Source of the DNA: the human T2T-CHM13v2.0 reference genome, Homo sapiens | Strand: one strand, 5' to 3' | NCBI RefSeq assembly: GCF_009914755.1 | Contig: NC_060937.1 | Length of the DNA stretch: 64,000 nt | Part shown: piece after piece, positions 18,441 to 38,560 of the stretch | Layout: every line of letters starts with the position of its first letter | How positions within the stretch are numbered: the stretch's first letter is position 1 | Program-made: the position numbers and the translations under genes | Notes under the pieces: model-generated | What the model saw: only the letters and a program-made list of their open reading frames with translations | Told to the model about the DNA's origin: nothing | The model's database searches: none

Positions 18441-20511
18441 TTATTAATATAAATATTTTACTACCCTACTTAGAAGTCTAAGTTATGGAGGCCTCCTCCC
18501 CTCCACATCACTGACTGCCTTTGTTTTCTTAGACAAGTCACATAACCCTTAAGCAATGTGTCTTCATTGTGAAGTGAATATAAAAGGATTCCTAATATTT
18601 AATATCTTTCCAACTGTCAAATTATCTAGTGATTAGAACAGAAAATAAAACACAACTTCTTTGCTATCAGTGTTGCTGATATTTCAAAAGGAACTTGTGA
18701 AGAAGCTGTAATGCTCCCTGAAGTTGGCAAATCTGCTGGGACTTGACTTTCTGCTCAAAGTAAATTCTGAGGCTCCGGTTGTCTGTGGCGTGTTATTCAT
18801 CGGCTGATGGATGACTCAATGTTTAAATGCTAAGGCCACTGTACACACACATACATGCACACATGCACATACACACTGTAGAGCCACAATTATTTTGTTT
18901 TACAGACTTGGGGTATTTTGCAGAATTTTTTTAATAATGAAGCTGTGGTATTAAAACTGAAAAGTTAAAGGTAAAATGTAACAGTTTGTCACAATTACGT
19001 GTCATATTGGCAGGTGTTCTGAACTTTCTGTTTGAAAACTAGACATATAAATTTCAGTTCTTAAAGCTTTGCAGCCAATTTAAGGGCTCATTTATTTCAC
19101 TGACAGCAAGATGTATGTGCAGCCTCACATACTGGATGTCTGGGCCAAAATCGGCACTTTGTGGCTTGCTTGTCTCACAGGGAGTAAATAGTAGCAATTT
19201 TTCAGCATAGGCATGCTAGCACAAGGTGTTTAGCAAATAAATGAGCATAAGATGACCTGTGGTGTCCTGAAATTACTAAAATTCATGAATAATAAAATGA
19301 TCTATAGATTGTTAGCAGAGGGCTACAGCACAGGCTAATTTGCAGCCAGTGAAGCTTTACAGGATAATTTATAACTTTTGAAAATTTAATGACTTCATCA
19401 ATTTTTACCTATTTTTTACCAATATAATCTCCTGAATACCACTTTCAGCTATGATTTCCTTATAAGAAAATATCTAAGTCACCTACATGTTTAGGTTATT
19501 AAAATTAAGGTTGCTTTATTTAGATTTCTTGATTGTTTTATATAATTCAGACAATAATAGGGAAAAAAACCTTTAGTGGGTTCTGTGTGTTTTAATAACA
19601 AAATTTGTACAGAAAAAATAATGATTCTATGAAAAGAACTTTGCTATGACATACTACTTAGGTAGTTTGTTACTATTATTTTGGAGCATATTATTTCACT
19701 TTTGACAATTAAATTTTTTACGATAAATTCGAGTTCCAACACCAATTCGTTTTTTCTTTGCAAACTTCATAGAAAAAAATATTCCTTAAAAAACAGAAAT
19801 ATATATGCACTCTTATACTAAACACTACTTGGAAAATATTTTTAGTTCTTTTAAAACAATTAATAAATAATACTTGAGTTTTAGCTTTATGTTCACCTAC
19901 TAAAGACATATGATTTCTTTAAATTCCAGAATGTGCCAGTATGTGTGTTTTGTTTCACAATATATTTACATTTTATAGCTAAGTGTCTTAGATCAGTTAT
20001 TAGATTGCATTTAGATTATGGCTTTATGAGTCTATTCATTTTTTTATTTTCTGAATTTTCTGGTGGCTAAAACTTTTATATTTATATCACTGTCACATAC
20101 ATGAATAATACAGTTTTTATAGACAGAATTTTGTATAGACTTTTCTCAGTAATGTAGAATTTGTTGACTGAAGATAAATCTGGTTATGATGTGGAACAAA
20201 GAGTATTTTTCTACACTGTCTAAACAGGTTAGACAACACATAAGGTGATATAGGCATTGTCAAAATGGAATATGTATGTAAAGCAATGAAACTATTCTAA
20301 TCTGTAATACATAAAAAAGTTGAATGTAATTCAAAATGTTTGCAGTTGTATTTAGAATAGTGATACTACATAACTGTGGTATATTGGTGTGTGGACCTAC
20401 ATTTTATACTGTACATATTTTTAATGACAAGCATTTGTTTTTCTGAATTGCTCCCACCTTTTCTACTAGCATTTAATATAATGGAAGGAACACAAGAAAT
20501 AAAGTAGTCCA

Positions 20512-20821
20512 GGCCGGGCGCGGTGGCTCACGCCTGTAATCCCAGCACTTTGGAAGGCCGAGGCGGGCGGATCACGAGGTCAGGAGATCGAGACCATCCT
20601 GGCTAATACGGTGAAACCCCGTCTCTACTAAAAATACAAAAAATTAGCTGCACGTGGTGGCGGGCACCTGTAGTCCCAGCTACTCGGGAGGCTGAGGCAG
20701 GAGAATGGCGTGAACCCGCGAGGCGGAGCTTGCAGTGAGCCGAGATCGCCCCACTGGGCGACAGAGTGATATTTTGTCAAAGGAAGGGAGGAAGGGAGGA
20801 AGGGAGGGAGGGAGGGAGGGA
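20512..20821 (+). mobile_element. AluY SINE with a 12-bp right-arm deletion and a (GGAA/GGGA)n tail
   Basis: Near-consensus CpG-rich ggccgggcgcggtggctcacgcc...gagatcgagaccatcctggctaa...gagaatggcgtgaacc...gagcttgcagtgagccgagatcg. Confidence 0.95.
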
Positions 20822-22602
20822 GTCCAAATGTCTTGTTTATTTTCTTGCCATTGAATTCCCTGGACCTCAGTTTTATTATCCATAAACATGACATACTAAT
20901 AAAAGTCATCATGACAATCTTGGCTTCTGTGAGTACCATATATGCATGTGATAGCCCTAAAGTACTCCAATTATAATTCCCATAAAAGGAAGAGACTACT
21001 GGCTAAGTGAAGAATTCAAAAATAATTATGTTGCAAATATGTCAACAAATTGTGAAAAAGGAGAGGAAGAGGGAGAAATGTTTAACCTGTTTAGGGATAG
21101 AGCAATCTATTTTAAAGTGAATTATCCTAGATTATGTTTAATAACTTATTTTTTCATTTGCCAAAAATTATTCAGTATAAATATGACTTGTCAGAAAGAG
21201 AGTTTAGAGCCAAGAGGATCAGAGTGAATTATTGACAGTCAAAAACTGAGTGTGGATATTTACTTGCCTTTAGCTTATTTTTTCATAGACAAACTGAGCT
21301 ATTTTAAGGTTGTGAGTTGAGATGGACAAATAAATTAGATATGTAATTGAACAAGTAATACATATTGAGAAATGTATTCTACAGGAGAAATGAACTTGCC
21401 AGTATAATAAAATAAAAAATGTTTGGTGAAAAAGAAATACTATCACCATCAATTTGACCAGTTTAACATAAATTAAACATAGTTTGGTATGTGGGAACCC
21501 TTACTTAAATCCTCACCTGTTTTTCCTATGGGCAATTTTTCATTTTCTTTCTTTTATTGTCTCATTAATTTCCATTATTATTTTAAATATTGCTGTGAAT
21601 AGTGAAAAATAGATATTAAAAATGTCTCAAATTGAGAGTCAAAAAGGGAAGAGCAACTAGAAACAGAGAATTGAGTCAATCAGCTCTCATTCCATTTATT
21701 GCCTCTCAGTTTTTTTATCTTGTCTTTATTAATTATTTTTTATGGCTAATTGTACCTTCCCATTATCAACCCTTAGCTTCACTACCAAAAAGAGGACTGT
21801 GTTTATTTCTTTTATTTCAAATCTTAGGGGAAATTTTGGTTTGTTTGGCTTGGATGATATATTTGCCCTGTGGCTAGTGGTCAGGGTACTGTAGTTGTAG
21901 GATACTAGTCCTTAATTAGCAGCAAATGATACAGAGTCAAAGGGAAGACTGACACAGGTTTCATTGTTTACCCAATCTGTCCAACTCATCTGCTTTCTAT
22001 CAGGAGGAATAATTATCTAGGATCTTTCAGGCCTTCTCCTGGAATGTAAAATGTATTTATTTTAGAAATTATCGTGTATTTCACAGTCCAAATCTCCTTG
22101 AACTAGAGGTTTTCTAGAATGTTGAAGATTAGACATCCTTTTGACATAGTTGAGGTTTTTCTGTAATCACACTACAAGAGATTTTTACCTCATGAAATTT
22201 TTTGGTAGAAGGCCTGTGCTAAATAGCCTGTTTAGTCATTATCTATAAAACTAAAATCTCTGCATGTAAAGGCTCTCACATCTGAACCACTAGGTAGAAT
22301 AGATCTATTTAGCTATCCCAAGGCAGAGGCTAGTCCTGTAGACCTTGGCAATGACTTCCAAGAAGTAACTAAAGGCCAGAGTGCTGGCATGGCTCACCTG
22401 CCTGGGAAGTTGCCATTTTCTTCCATGTTGTGTCTCATTTGAGGACAAATTCTTATTGGGCAAGTATGCAGAGTAATTGGAGATGGGAAAGCCTGTCTAT
22501 AGTTCTTAAATGTTACAATATTTTCATTCTGATTTGTATAACATATTTAATTTTTAACATATACCCTGAATTTCAACTGGGGGTAATTTAGTAAAAAAAA
22601 AA

Positions 22603-28699: not shown

Positions 28700-29427
28700 C
28701 CATTAGTCAAGTTTCTCTAGAGAGACAGAACCAACAAGATAAATAAATAGATTAAGGATAGAAAGATAGATAGATGTAGATATAGATGATATAGATATAG
28801 ATATATGAGAGATAATTAATTATGAAAATTTTCTCATGCAATTATGGAAGCTGAGAAGTCTCATGGCAGGCTGTCTGCAAGCTTGAAACCCTGAAATGCC
28901 AGTAGTGTGGTACAGTCCAAATCCAAAAGCCTTAGGACCAGGGAAGCCCACGGTGTAACTCTCAATACATTGCTCAAGGTCTGAGAACCAACCAAGAGTT
29001 GGAGGAGGAGGCACTGGTGTGAGTTCCAGGGTCCAAAGGCCAGAAAGCCTGGAGTTCTGATGTTCAAGGGTAAGAGAAGAAGGGTTTCCCAGCTCCAAAA
29101 GAGACAGAGATAAAAATTCCCCTTTCCTCTTCTTTTTTGTTCTATCTGGGCCCCTAGGAATTAGCTGGTGCCTACCCGCATTCAGGGTGAATCTCCCCAA
29201 CTCAGTCCACCAATTCACATATGAATTTCCTCTGTGAACACCCTCACAGCTGTGTGGCCACGGGACTCAGCACACCCCGCTCGTACCGTAACGGCCGCTC
29301 GCGCTCCCAGACCCCAACCCCCGCGTTCGGGGCGCCCACTGGCTCGCAGACACCTGGAAATAATGCTCTACTAGTTTTCTAGGTATTCCTTAATCCAGTC
29401 AAGTTGACACTTAAAATTAACCATCAG
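28700..29427 (-). mobile_element. MLT2B-like ERVL solo LTR carrying a 100-bp foreign insert
   Basis: attagtcaagtttctctagagagacagaacca...ggaagctgagaagtc...ggagttctgatgttcaagg...aacaccctcacag|acacctggaaataatg...aatccagtcaagttgacacttaaaattaaccatca; internal (TAGA)n-like tract. Confidence 0.9.
29250..29349. other. 100-bp GC/CpG-rich inserted fragment of unknown origin
   Basis: 73 of 100 bases G/C and 13 CpGs (counted by hand); removing it rejoins the MLT2 motif caccctcacagacac. Confidence 0.85.
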
Positions 29428-29779
29428 AGAGACCAAGGGGCTTAAGTACTATACATTATTTGCCAATTCAGTATATGGTCATGACTACCGATGCTCAGAA
29501 TTATTTAAATATATCTGACAGGAAACTCTGGGAAACTTTTTATTAACATTAGCAAGGCTTGATTAATTCTATAGGAGTCAAGAGGCTTTACAACCTTCCT
29601 TTCAACCTGCTCTCCTCCCACCAAAGATAAATAAATACACAGGATAGCATAGCTCTAGCAATATGGGTTTCTGTTTGCTATGTTTGAAATTTTTAATTAA
29701 TTTAAGCTTGCTGAAATTTAATTTACAGAAATAATACATCTCTTTTCCATTACATGTTCTCCTCTTAAAAATGTTTGTT

Positions 29780-30108
<329 letters not shown>

Positions 30109-37526: not shown

Positions 37527-38560
37527 TCTATATTAATTTGCTAAAGCTGCCTTAACAGAGGACCACAAACTGGGTATCTTAAAACAACAGAAAATTGCGT
37601 CTTACATGCCTGGAAACTGTAAGTTTCAAATCAGGGTTGGCAGGACCATAGTCCTATCGAGACTTTGAATAGATCCTTCCTTATGTTTTCCTACCTTTTG
37701 GTGGTGGCCAGAAATCCTTGCCATTTTCCTTTCCTTGCAAATGCATTGGTCTTGTCTCTACTTCTAAGGTTATATTGATAGTGGCAGGAGGCAGACGAAT
37801 GCCTAGGCAGATAGGGGTGGGTCCTTGGTGAAACCCACCTCCAAGCCGAAGACAGTTTAAAGCCTGAAAGCCAAGCTACAGATCTGTGGACTGGATTGAA
37901 AACCTGTCTTTTCATTTGGTGTGCTTTCCTCTGATTGATCTCCACCCTTCACTTATTTTACATATACCTACCCTTTCCTATTTGGTTTTCTACACTGCCA
38001 TGCCCACTTTTGAGTGGTGCCTTTGCTTTAGCCTTTCTTTGCATATTCACAAACCAATCAGCACACATTCCCCAATTCTGAGCCCATAAAAGCACTACCC
38101 CCACATCCTCTCTCCAGTGAGAGCTGTTCCATTGCTCAGTAAAATTATTCTCTGCTTTCCTCACTCTTAGATTTTCAGCATATTCTCATTCTTCTTGGAG
38201 GTGGGGAGGGCAGCTGCCTCATGTGACAGAAAGGGCGGTGTGATCCGAGCCAGTCCCAGGGCCACAGGCCGAGGCAGGGCAAGGGCATTGCCAGCCAGGT
38301 GTCTCCAGCTGGCAAAAGTAACAGAGAAATATCCTGCATCAACATAACCTTCTTCCCATTGTCTTACCTCTGTGTTTGTCTGTGTCTGTGTCTAAATCAC
38401 CCCCCTTTTATTAGGGCGCTTGTCTTATTTGATTGGGACCCATTCTAACAACCTCAAGTTGATTAATTGCAAAGATCTTATTTTAAAATAAATTATGTTC
38501 ACAGTTTCTAGGTGTTAAGAATTCTACATATTTTGGGGGAGATATAATTCAAATTATAAA
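37527..38560 (-). mobile_element. MLT1C-like MaLR LTR split by an ERV1 LTR
   Basis: tatattaatttgctaaagctgccttaacagaggaccacaaactgggt...aaacaacagaaa; resumes at 38342 through gcaaagatcttatttt...ggggagatataattcaaa. Confidence 0.8.
37776..38341 (+). mobile_element. ERV1 solo LTR (LTR27/LTR28/MER61 group)
   Basis: tgatagtggcaggaggcagac...aaaccaatcagcac...cccataaaagc...atcctgcatca; TG..CA ends, CCAAT and TATA-like motifs, 4-bp TSD atat/acat. Confidence 0.8.

What the first reader, a model, noticed from the sequence alone, without database searches (positions are those of the whole stretch)
29250..29349. 100-bp CpG-island-like fragment captured inside an ancient MLT2 LTR
Seen: in a very AT-rich, CpG-depleted window this segment is 73% GC with 13 intact CpGs. 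Deleting it restores the MLT2 motif aacaccctcacag|acacctggaaataatg, so it is an insertion and not part of the LTR. It has no poly(A) tail, no 10-20 bp TSD and no TIRs. The left junction is a fold-back palindrome (cacag|ctgtg, extending imperfectly to ccctcacag|ctgtgtgg), and the insert's right end (ctcgcag) mimics the left flank (ctcacag). Established: methylated CpGs in TE-rich DNA decay quickly; L1-mediated insertions leave poly(A) and TSDs; polymerase-theta end joining leaves snap-back and microhomology signatures. Inference: a recent templated insertion copied from a distant CpG island, promoter or mRNA 5' UTR during break repair, which could seed a mini CpG island or regulatory site within an LTR. 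A foreign, engineered or misassembled segment is the alternative. I do not recognise the donor.
Basis: partly seen in the sequence, partly recalled or inferred. Interest (0 to 1): 0.85.

Follow-up and report, generated by a model that had tools for sequence, protein, structure and literature searches.

The report
PDE3B CpG-island fragment pasted into LTR
A 100-base CpG-rich block inside an old repeat on chromosome 13 is a copy of the stretch just upstream of the PDE3B start codon on chromosome 11, pasted in by DNA repair, which is a known and ordinary kind of event.

Summary
Window 29250-29349 is 73% GC with 13 CpGs (observed/expected 1.03), in a window of 33% GC and CpG o/e 0.17.

It interrupts an old interspersed repeat (28830-29426). 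None of 26 aligned paralogous copies carries the block.

The donor is now identified. 95 bases (29254-29348) match one other place in the genome, chr11:14739262-14739356 minus strand, at 92 of 95 bases, with all 13 CpGs shared. That place lies 15-109 bases upstream of the ATG of PDE3B, inside a roughly 1.4-kb CpG island.

There is no poly(A), no L1 target site and no perfect duplication longer than 3 bases. The junctions show a 4-base filler or short imperfect homology on the left and a 2-base microhomology on the right.

This fits a class 2 templated-sequence insertion, also described as an interchromosomal repair-mediated duplication.

- **Age:** open. A crude clock gives 4-19 Myr. No primate or population data were available.
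- **Template and polymerase:** RNA versus DNA, and a role for polymerase theta, are undecided.
- **Regulatory effect:** untested.

The parts
28830..29249 (+). Left (5') part of an old interspersed LTR-like repeat, the acceptor. It ends ...AACACCCTCACAG.
   Evidence: Own-genome search gave 1770 first-look candidates, 40 scored, at 69-74% identity over query 4-420. 29 of 29 fetched paralogues cover 28881-29200, and 21 alignments end exactly at 29249. A (GATA)n-like microsatellite lies just upstream at 28757-28814.
29250..29253 (+). Four junction bases, CTGT, not in register with the donor block. They are either filler or partly donor-templated (CTG) with 9 donor bases skipped.
   Evidence: Pairwise alignment. 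With the next G they form the palindrome CACAG|CTGTG. Alternatively, window CCTCACAGCTG matches donor CCTCATGGCTG at 9 of 11 bases, 9 bases beside the block. That is the only such hit among 2980 positions of the donor island, and 0.3% of shuffles reach it.
29254..29348 (-). 95-base copy of the PDE3B promoter-proximal or 5'-UTR-side segment, bases -109 to -15 from the ATG. The PDE3B sense direction is on the window's minus strand.
   Evidence: The only second match in the genome is G000:C11:14739262-14739356 minus strand, E 4e-37. 92 of 95 bases are identical. The mismatches are at 29291, 29338 and 29343, and 13 of 13 CpGs are shared. The adjacent ORF is the PDE3B N-terminus.
29347..29349 (+). 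Right junction, CAG. CA is shared by the donor (..TTCGCA|A) and the target (..CTCACA|G), a 2-base microhomology. G repeats the target's last base before the break.
   Evidence: Alignment of window and donor, and the sequence of the paralogues at the site.
29350..29426 (+). Right (3') part of the same repeat, ending ...ACCATCA. It starts ACACCTGGAA, two bases shorter than the ACACACCCAGAA seen in most paralogues.
   Evidence: 24-26 of 29 paralogues cover 29361-29420 and 17 alignments end at 29426. Alignment.
29242..29257 (.). Imperfect palindrome across the left junction, CCTCACAG|CTGTGTGG.
   Evidence: the repeat finder pair I2, 9-base arms, 89% complementary.

Best explanation
The block is a non-L1 templated insertion. 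It corresponds to a 'class 2 templated-sequence insertion', also called an interchromosomal repair-mediated duplication.

Shown:
- An old LTR-like repeat on chr13 is interrupted between ...CCCTCACAG and ACACC...
- The interrupting 100 bases consist of 4 junction bases, a 95-base copy of the PDE3B CpG island (-109 to -15 from the ATG, antisense on the window's plus strand) and one G.
- The donor is still in place on chr11, so this was a copy and not a transfer.

Inferred:
- The germline chromosome broke, or a fork stalled, at this spot.
- A free 3' end paired by a few bases with the PDE3B region. Candidates are target CCTCACAG against donor CCTCATGG on the left, or CA on the right.
- A repair polymerase copied about 95-107 bases.
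- The new strand came off and was joined to the other end through the CA microhomology, then filled in and ligated.

If synthesis ran left to right on the window's top strand, the template had the PDE3B sense sequence. That would be either the displaced non-template DNA strand of a promoter-proximal R-loop or PDE3B RNA itself.

The block is most likely a neutral scar. Its intact CpGs reflect youth relative to the repeat, not function.
For: - Unique donor: 2 matches in the whole genome, the block itself and chr11. 92 of 95 bases are identical with 13 of 13 CpGs shared.
- Donor identity: the donor sits in a stretch of 65-82% GC about 1.4 kb long, directly upstream of an ORF whose 317 residues are 87% identical to a protein named cGMP-inhibited 3',5'-cyclic phosphodiesterase B.
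- Empty site: 26 of 26 aligned paralogous repeat copies lack the block.
- No L1 marks: there is no poly(A), no TTTT/A-type target and no perfect duplication over 3 bases.
- Junctions: CA microhomology on the right and 4-base filler or imperfect homology on the left.
- Class 2 definition: these are the features given for class 2 TSIPs, namely no TSD and no poly(A), with microhomology, microdeletion or non-templated bases (PMC5110952, parts 1-2 of 4 read).
- TE-interrupting duplications: Pace et al. found 1,136 such insertions in human TEs, 254 of them interchromosomal. 12 of 29 inspected interchromosomal cases lacked poly(A) and showed microhomology, filler or a TSD (PMC2671141, sections 6-7 read).
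- Donor strand: the PDE3B sense strand of the donor carries a G-quadruplex-type motif and a GC skew of +0.18. This suits an R-loop-prone donor.
Against: - No orthologous empty site and no reads were examined, so the event is inferred from paralogues and junctions only.
- The left-junction homology was noticed after the alignment was made, so its 0.3% shuffle figure is optimistic.
- The right end CTCGCAG matches the target heptamer at 6 of 7 bases, better than it matches the donor at 5 of 7. A 7-base target duplication with one change cannot be excluded, and that would hint at a staggered cut.
- The 3 mismatches in 95 bases, none of them a CpG decay, sit uneasily with simple neutral ageing of a methylated copy. 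The chance of that pattern is 0.03-0.24 depending on the assumed rates.
- Whether the donor stretch is transcribed, that is, lies in the 5' UTR, rests on my recollection of the gene model. No call confirmed the PDE3B transcription start.
Confidence: 0.85

Rival explanations
1. RNA-templated patch. A 3' end at the break primed on PDE3B RNA near the start codon and was extended by a reverse-transcribing enzyme (L1 ORF2 acting without its endonuclease, or polymerase theta) towards the 5' end of the RNA. This is a sub-case of the best explanation, not its opposite.
For: - The window's top strand equals the cDNA sense of PDE3B.
- The left flank CCTCACAG can pair imperfectly with the RNA across ..CCAUGAGG.., and the next three bases (CTG) are what that RNA would template.
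- The TSIP review reports that experimental insertions are enriched for transcribed sequence and are reduced more than three-fold by reverse-transcriptase inhibitors (PMC5110952).
Against: - No splice junction or cap-derived extra base marks the copy as RNA-derived.
- The end of the copy at -109 could not be compared with a PDE3B transcription start. The literature search gave nothing usable.
- A DNA strand of the same sequence explains the data equally well.
Confidence: 0.3
2. Replicative template switch (FoSTeS/MMBIR type) without a two-ended break. The nascent strand left the chr13 template after ...CACAG, copied about 100 bases on chr11, and returned 1-3 bases behind where it had left.
For: Both switch points show short imperfect homology between the same target octamer and the donor (left 6 of 8, right TC-CA). 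The return point re-copies CAG or G. The MMBIR model paper appeared only in the listing and was not read.
Against: A single short interchromosomal template with no copy-number change around it is more typical of break-repair patches. Nothing in the sequence separates the two models.
Confidence: 0.15
3. Capture and ligation of a free double-stranded DNA fragment released from the PDE3B promoter, for example by promoter-proximal breakage, with no templated synthesis.
For: The 4-base filler at one end and minimal homology at the other are compatible with classical end joining of a fragment. Captured-fragment repair is described in the introduction of PMC5110952.
Against: The donor is intact in the same haploid genome, so an excised fragment would have needed a sister copy. 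The donor-adjacent 9-of-11 homology is unexplained by blunt capture.
Confidence: 0.15
4. L1-mediated retrocopy of a PDE3B transcript (class 1 TSIP or processed pseudogene fragment).
For: The donor is next to, and probably within, a transcribed gene. There is a possible imperfect 7-base duplication, CTCACAG/CTCGCAG.
Against: There is no poly(A), no polyadenylation signal and no T-rich target site. The fragment comes from the 5' end of the gene, whereas L1 copies keep the 3' end (criteria from PMC5110952).
Confidence: 0.03
5. Assembly artefact or chimeric read in T2T-CHM13.
For: None positive. Reads could not be examined.
Against: The copy differs from the donor at 3 of 95 bases and has junction filler. 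A chimeric join of chr11 sequence would be expected to be identical and longer.
Confidence: 0.02

Closest known systems
Class 2 templated-sequence insertions / TSIPs (Onozawa & Aplan; PMC5110952, parts 1-2 of 4 read)
   Same: A short copy of a unique distant locus with the donor intact. No target-site duplication of 5 bases or more, no poly(A), microhomology and extra bases at the junctions. The size lies within the experimental range of 73-414 bp.
   Different: Polymorphism, the 'P' in TSIP, was not tested here. This copy may be fixed and millions of years old.
Repair-mediated duplications detected as non-TE inserts inside TEs (Pace, Sen, Batzer, Feschotte 2009; PMC2671141, abstract and sections 6-7 read)
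   Same: It would be detected by the same logic: a TE interrupted by 50 bases or more that occur at only one other place. It has the same breakpoint marks, microhomology plus filler and possibly a 2-base deletion.
   Different: Most of their cases (824 of 1,136) have donors within 5 kb. This one is interchromosomal, a class of 254 in which 17 of 29 inspected cases were retrocopies with poly(A).
Transcription-coupled templated insertions at induced breaks (Indel-Seq preprint 10.1101/2022.09.30.509517, passages read)
   Same: The donor is at a promoter or transcribed region, the size is close to their median of 120 bp, and one junction has 2-3 bases of microhomology while the other does not.
   Different: Those are somatic events in cultured cells with induced breaks. 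This is a germline, inherited event whose break cause is unknown.
L1-mediated processed pseudogenes / class 1 TSIPs
   Same: A gene-derived sequence copied to another chromosome.
   Different: It lacks poly(A), a long target duplication and the T-rich L1 nick site. It keeps the 5' side of the gene and not the 3' end.
NUMT insertion by end joining (PMC2567098, seen in a search listing only)
   Same: Filler-type capture of foreign DNA at a germline break.
   Different: The donor here is nuclear chr11 and not mitochondrial DNA.

Membership tests
Class 2 templated-sequence insertion / interchromosomal repair-mediated duplication | The insert matches one unique, distant genomic donor. | tested here: met
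   2 matches in the genome, the block itself and chr11:14739262-14739356. No other piece of the donor locus is present in the window.
Class 2 templated-sequence insertion / interchromosomal repair-mediated duplication | The donor is retained (copy, not excision). | tested here: met
   The donor sequence is contiguous within the chr11 CpG island of the same haploid assembly.
Class 2 templated-sequence insertion / interchromosomal repair-mediated duplication | No poly(A) tract or polyadenylation signal at either end. | tested here: met
   Sequence of 29240-29360.
Class 2 templated-sequence insertion / interchromosomal repair-mediated duplication | No target-site duplication of 5 bases or more. 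| tested here: inconclusive
   The perfect duplication is at most 3 bases (CAG). An imperfect heptamer, CTCACAG/CTCGCAG, matches at 6 of 7, and 5 of its 7 bases are also donor sequence.
Class 2 templated-sequence insertion / interchromosomal repair-mediated duplication | End-joining marks at the junctions: microhomology, filler or microdeletion. | tested here: met
   CA microhomology on the right and 4-base filler on the left. The right flank is 2 bases shorter than in most paralogues.
Class 2 templated-sequence insertion / interchromosomal repair-mediated duplication | Empty site in orthologues or in other human haplotypes. | not testable with these tools
   No primate or human population sequences were held. 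Only paralogous copies could be used, and 26 of 26 were empty.
L1-mediated retrocopy (class 1 TSIP) | Poly(A) tail, target duplication of at least 5 bases, TTTT/A-type nick site. | tested here: not met
   None of the three is present. Criteria as given in PMC5110952.
CpG island (usual length and composition criteria, recalled: at least 200 bases, GC at least 50%, o/e at least 0.6) | Length of at least 200 bases with high GC and high CpG o/e. | tested here: not met
   GC 73% and o/e 1.03 pass, but the block is only 100 bases and its flanks have 2 CpGs in 497 bases.
Polymerase-theta snap-back templated insertion | Junction bases are an inverted copy of the adjacent flank. | tested here: inconclusive
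   CTGTG is the reverse complement of CACAG. Only 4-5 bases are involved, and a donor-based reading fits as well.
MLT2 (ERVL) LTR, as the acceptor | Match to the family's library sequence. | not testable with these tools
   No repeat library was available. What is shown is a high-copy family at 69-74% identity, with copies ending ...ACCATCA.

The most novel reading that the evidence does not exclude
The insertion is specific to the human lineage or still polymorphic. It was made by reverse transcription of the PDE3B 5' UTR, so the three mismatches are copying errors. It has escaped methylation, so that a 100-base fragment behaves as an autonomous mini CpG island in a gene desert.
Probability: 0.06. 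Interest if true: 0.5.

Novelty: new member of a known kind. Interest (0 to 1): 0.25.

Why it matters
The finding gives a cleanly resolved example of how germline break repair moves small pieces of promoters and CpG islands between chromosomes. Donor, orientation and both junctions are defined to the base. Such scars are known by the hundred in the human genome, so this one adds an instance and not a principle. It would gain interest only if it proved polymorphic, RNA-templated or unmethylated.

Tried and rejected
- **Known RNA genes.** The Rfam scan of 28800-29800 gave 5 matches, all far below their gathering scores. The best was KCNQ1OT1_2 at 22 bits against 80, E 0.51. I take these as chance.
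- **tRNA genes.** ARAGORN found 0 genes.
- **Part of the repeat family.** Rejected, because 0 of 26 aligned paralogues carry the block.
- **Other pieces of the donor locus in the window.** None. All other BLAST hits were 13-26 bases with E of 2 or more.
- **Strong structure at the donor that might explain the block's ends.** The DNA fold of 160 bases has a z-score of -0.16, no better than shuffles.
- **Naming the donor gene from print.** A text search for an 11-residue peptide of the ORF found 0 papers. The name came instead from the protein search.
- **PDE3B transcription start.** One search listed 5 papers, and passages of one review gave nothing usable.
- **Supplementary tables of Pace et al. 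2009.** Closed, so I could not check whether this locus is already listed. The list in Onozawa et al. 2015 was not looked for.

Full report
**Observation**

Window 29250-29349 is 100 bases of 73% GC with 13 CpGs and a CpG observed/expected ratio of 1.03. The 64-kb window as a whole is 33.2% GC with o/e 0.17. Outside this block no 100-base frame exceeds 10 CpGs or 68% GC. The frames that reach 10 CpGs lie in a young Alu-like element at about 20505-20760.

**It is an insertion into a repeat**

A search of the window's own genome with 28830-29430 gave 1770 first-look candidates, of which 40 were scored. Matches ran at 69-74% identity over query 4-420, that is, up to window 29249. In most loci they resumed at query 514-535, and the two pieces abut or overlap in the other copy.

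Coverage by the 29 fetched paralogues is as follows:
- 29 of 29 over 28881-29200
- 0 of 29 over 29261-29340
- 24-26 of 29 over 29361-29420
- 21 alignments end exactly at 29249, and 17 end at 29426

I aligned 26 of the 29 across the site. L010, L016 and L021 were left out because their matches stop 30-39 bases before it. None of the 26 has more than 6 extra bases there. Most read straight through, as L005 does with ...GAAACACCCTCACAGACACACCCAGAA... L029 has a deletion at the site and L026 a 6-base duplication.

The acceptor repeat therefore spans about 28830-29426 and ends ...ACCATCA. Some copies align further upstream, to about 28702. I could not confirm the name MLT2 because no repeat library was available.

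**The donor**

The 100 bases have exactly two matches in the 3.1-Gb genome: the block itself, and G000:C11:14739262-14739356 on the minus strand, covering query 5-99.
- **Match:** window 29254-29348 matches at 92 of 95 bases.
- **Differences:** 29291 (A in the copy, G in the donor), 29338 (A, C) and 29343 (C, T).
- **CpGs:** all 13 are shared, and none of the three differences is a CpG decay.
- **Setting:** the donor lies in about 1.4 kb of 65-82% GC.

On the chr11 plus strand, an ATG 15 bases beyond the donor opens a frame of at least 317 residues. Its best named relatives are cGMP-inhibited 3',5'-cyclic phosphodiesterase B, at 87% identity over 100% of the query to the Galeopterus protein. 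65 proteins scored E of 0.001 or better. The donor is therefore the stretch -109 to -15 from the PDE3B start codon.

The copy is antisense to PDE3B on the window's plus strand. My recollection of the gene model, which no call confirmed, places this stretch inside the 5' UTR.

The direction of transfer is clear. The chr11 copy is continuous with its CpG island and gene, while the chr13 copy interrupts a repeat.

**Junctions**

*Left junction.* The window reads ...AACACCCTCACAG | CTGT | GTGGCCACGGG... The donor reads ...CCTCATGGCTG GGGCCGGGG GTGGCCACGGG... There are two readings.
- **Reading (a): filler.** CTGT is filler. With the next G it is the reverse complement of the flank CACAG, giving the palindrome CCTCACAG|CTGTGTGG with 7 of 8 positions paired.
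- **Reading (b): imperfect homology.** The target end CCTCACAG paired imperfectly with donor CCTCATGG. CTG was then copied from the donor, and 9 donor bases were skipped.

For reading (b), the 11-mer CCTCACAGCTG finds a match of 9 or more of 11 at only 1 of 2980 positions in the donor island (both strands), and that position is the one lying 9 bases from the block. 0.3% of shuffles of the 40 upstream bases do as well. I found this after seeing the alignment, so the figure is optimistic. I cannot choose between (a) and (b).

*Right junction.* The copy ends ...GGCTCGCA, the donor continues ...GGTTCGCA|ACCC, and the target resumes G|ACACC. CA is common to donor and target, which is a 2-base microhomology, and G repeats the target's last base.

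The mismatch at 29343 happens to carry the target's base, which could reflect a repaired heteroduplex. This is inference.

The right flank is 2 bases shorter than in most paralogues. This could be a microdeletion from the event or an unrelated slip.

There is no poly(A), no T-rich nick site, no terminal inverted repeats and no perfect duplication above 3 bases.

**Mechanism**

These features are the ones given for class 2 templated-sequence insertions: no TSD or poly(A), with microhomology, microdeletion or added bases. The authors ascribe these insertions to patching of a double-strand break in a germ cell or early embryo (PMC5110952).

[quoted passage not shown] They listed 1,136 cases in the human genome, 254 of them interchromosomal. 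12 of the 29 interchromosomal cases they inspected lacked poly(A) and showed filler, microhomology or a TSD (PMC2671141).

In an induced-break assay the median insert was 120 bp. More than 70% of donors came from promoters and transcribed gene bodies. 59% of inserts had one blunt end and one microhomology end, and the proposed route was invasion of the displaced strand of R-loops (preprint 10.1101/2022.09.30.509517, passages).

Our case matches in size, donor type and junction asymmetry. The PDE3B sense strand of the donor has a G-quadruplex-type motif and a GC skew of +0.18, which suits an R-loop-prone donor. The 160-base region has no unusually stable fold (z -0.16).

My preferred account is a germline break or stalled fork in the repeat, followed by priming on the PDE3B region through a few bases of homology. 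About 95-107 bases were then copied, and the strand was released and joined at CA. The following are not decided:
- whether the template was DNA or PDE3B RNA
- which polymerase did the copying
- whether there was a two-ended break or a replicative template switch

**Age**

I used recalled substitution rates: non-CpG 0.5-1.5e-9 per site per year, with CpG sites 6-15 times faster if methylated. I treated the three mismatches as later substitutions.
- **Most likely age:** 4-19 Myr.
- **Interval:** the 95% intervals together span about 1.3-55 Myr.
- **CpGs alone:** the 13 intact CpGs set a 95% upper limit of 5-38 Myr.
- **Mismatch pattern:** the chance that all three differences avoid CpG decay is 0.03-0.24.

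For comparison, an Alu-like element 420 bases downstream (29770-30070) keeps only 2 CpGs, and the acceptor repeat keeps 2 CpGs in 497 bases.

The insert is thus much younger than its host repeat. 'Recent' in the sense of human-specific is not shown. If the mismatches are copying errors, the event could be very young. Pace et al. found 24 human-specific cases against 1,112 older ones, which as a prior favours an older, shared event. No primate or population data were available to me.

**Function**

Nothing suggests a function. The block is half the usual minimum length of a CpG island. No RNA family or tRNA matches it, and no gene or functional element is annotated in the window (hub note). Methylation and chromatin state could not be examined.

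**Verdict**

The donor it could not name is the PDE3B upstream CpG island. The event belongs to a known class, so novelty is low. The open points are age, template type and methylation.

Noticed in passing
window 20505-20760: An Alu-like element keeps 21 CpGs in 256 bases (61% GC), so it is probably young. Its 3' part is cut short and followed by a (GGAA/GGGA)n run at about 20785-20822. It is the only other CpG-dense spot in the window.
   Followed up: partly
window 29770-30070: An older Alu-like element 420 bases downstream of the insert keeps only 2 CpGs in 301 bases. It serves as a local comparison showing that CpG decay has been effective at this locus.
   Followed up: partly
window 28757-28814: An impure (GATA)n / (ATAGAT)n microsatellite lies just upstream of the acceptor repeat's well-covered core, in a stretch (28702-28830) that only some paralogues align to.
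   Followed up: no
window 29289-29294: The copy's G-to-A difference at 29291 turns donor TAGCGG into TAACGG. As I recall, TAACGG is the core of the MYB recognition element. This is probably incidental.
   Followed up: no
window 38187-38316: A stretch of 65-68% GC with only about 3 CpGs, G-rich with several CAGG/GGCA motifs. It was not identified and may be a decayed repeat.
   Followed up: no
L002 1510-1543 (chr11 donor, plus strand): A G-quadruplex-type motif (four G-runs with loops of up to 12 bases) lies on the PDE3B sense strand between -100 and -67 from the ATG, inside the copied segment.
   Followed up: partly
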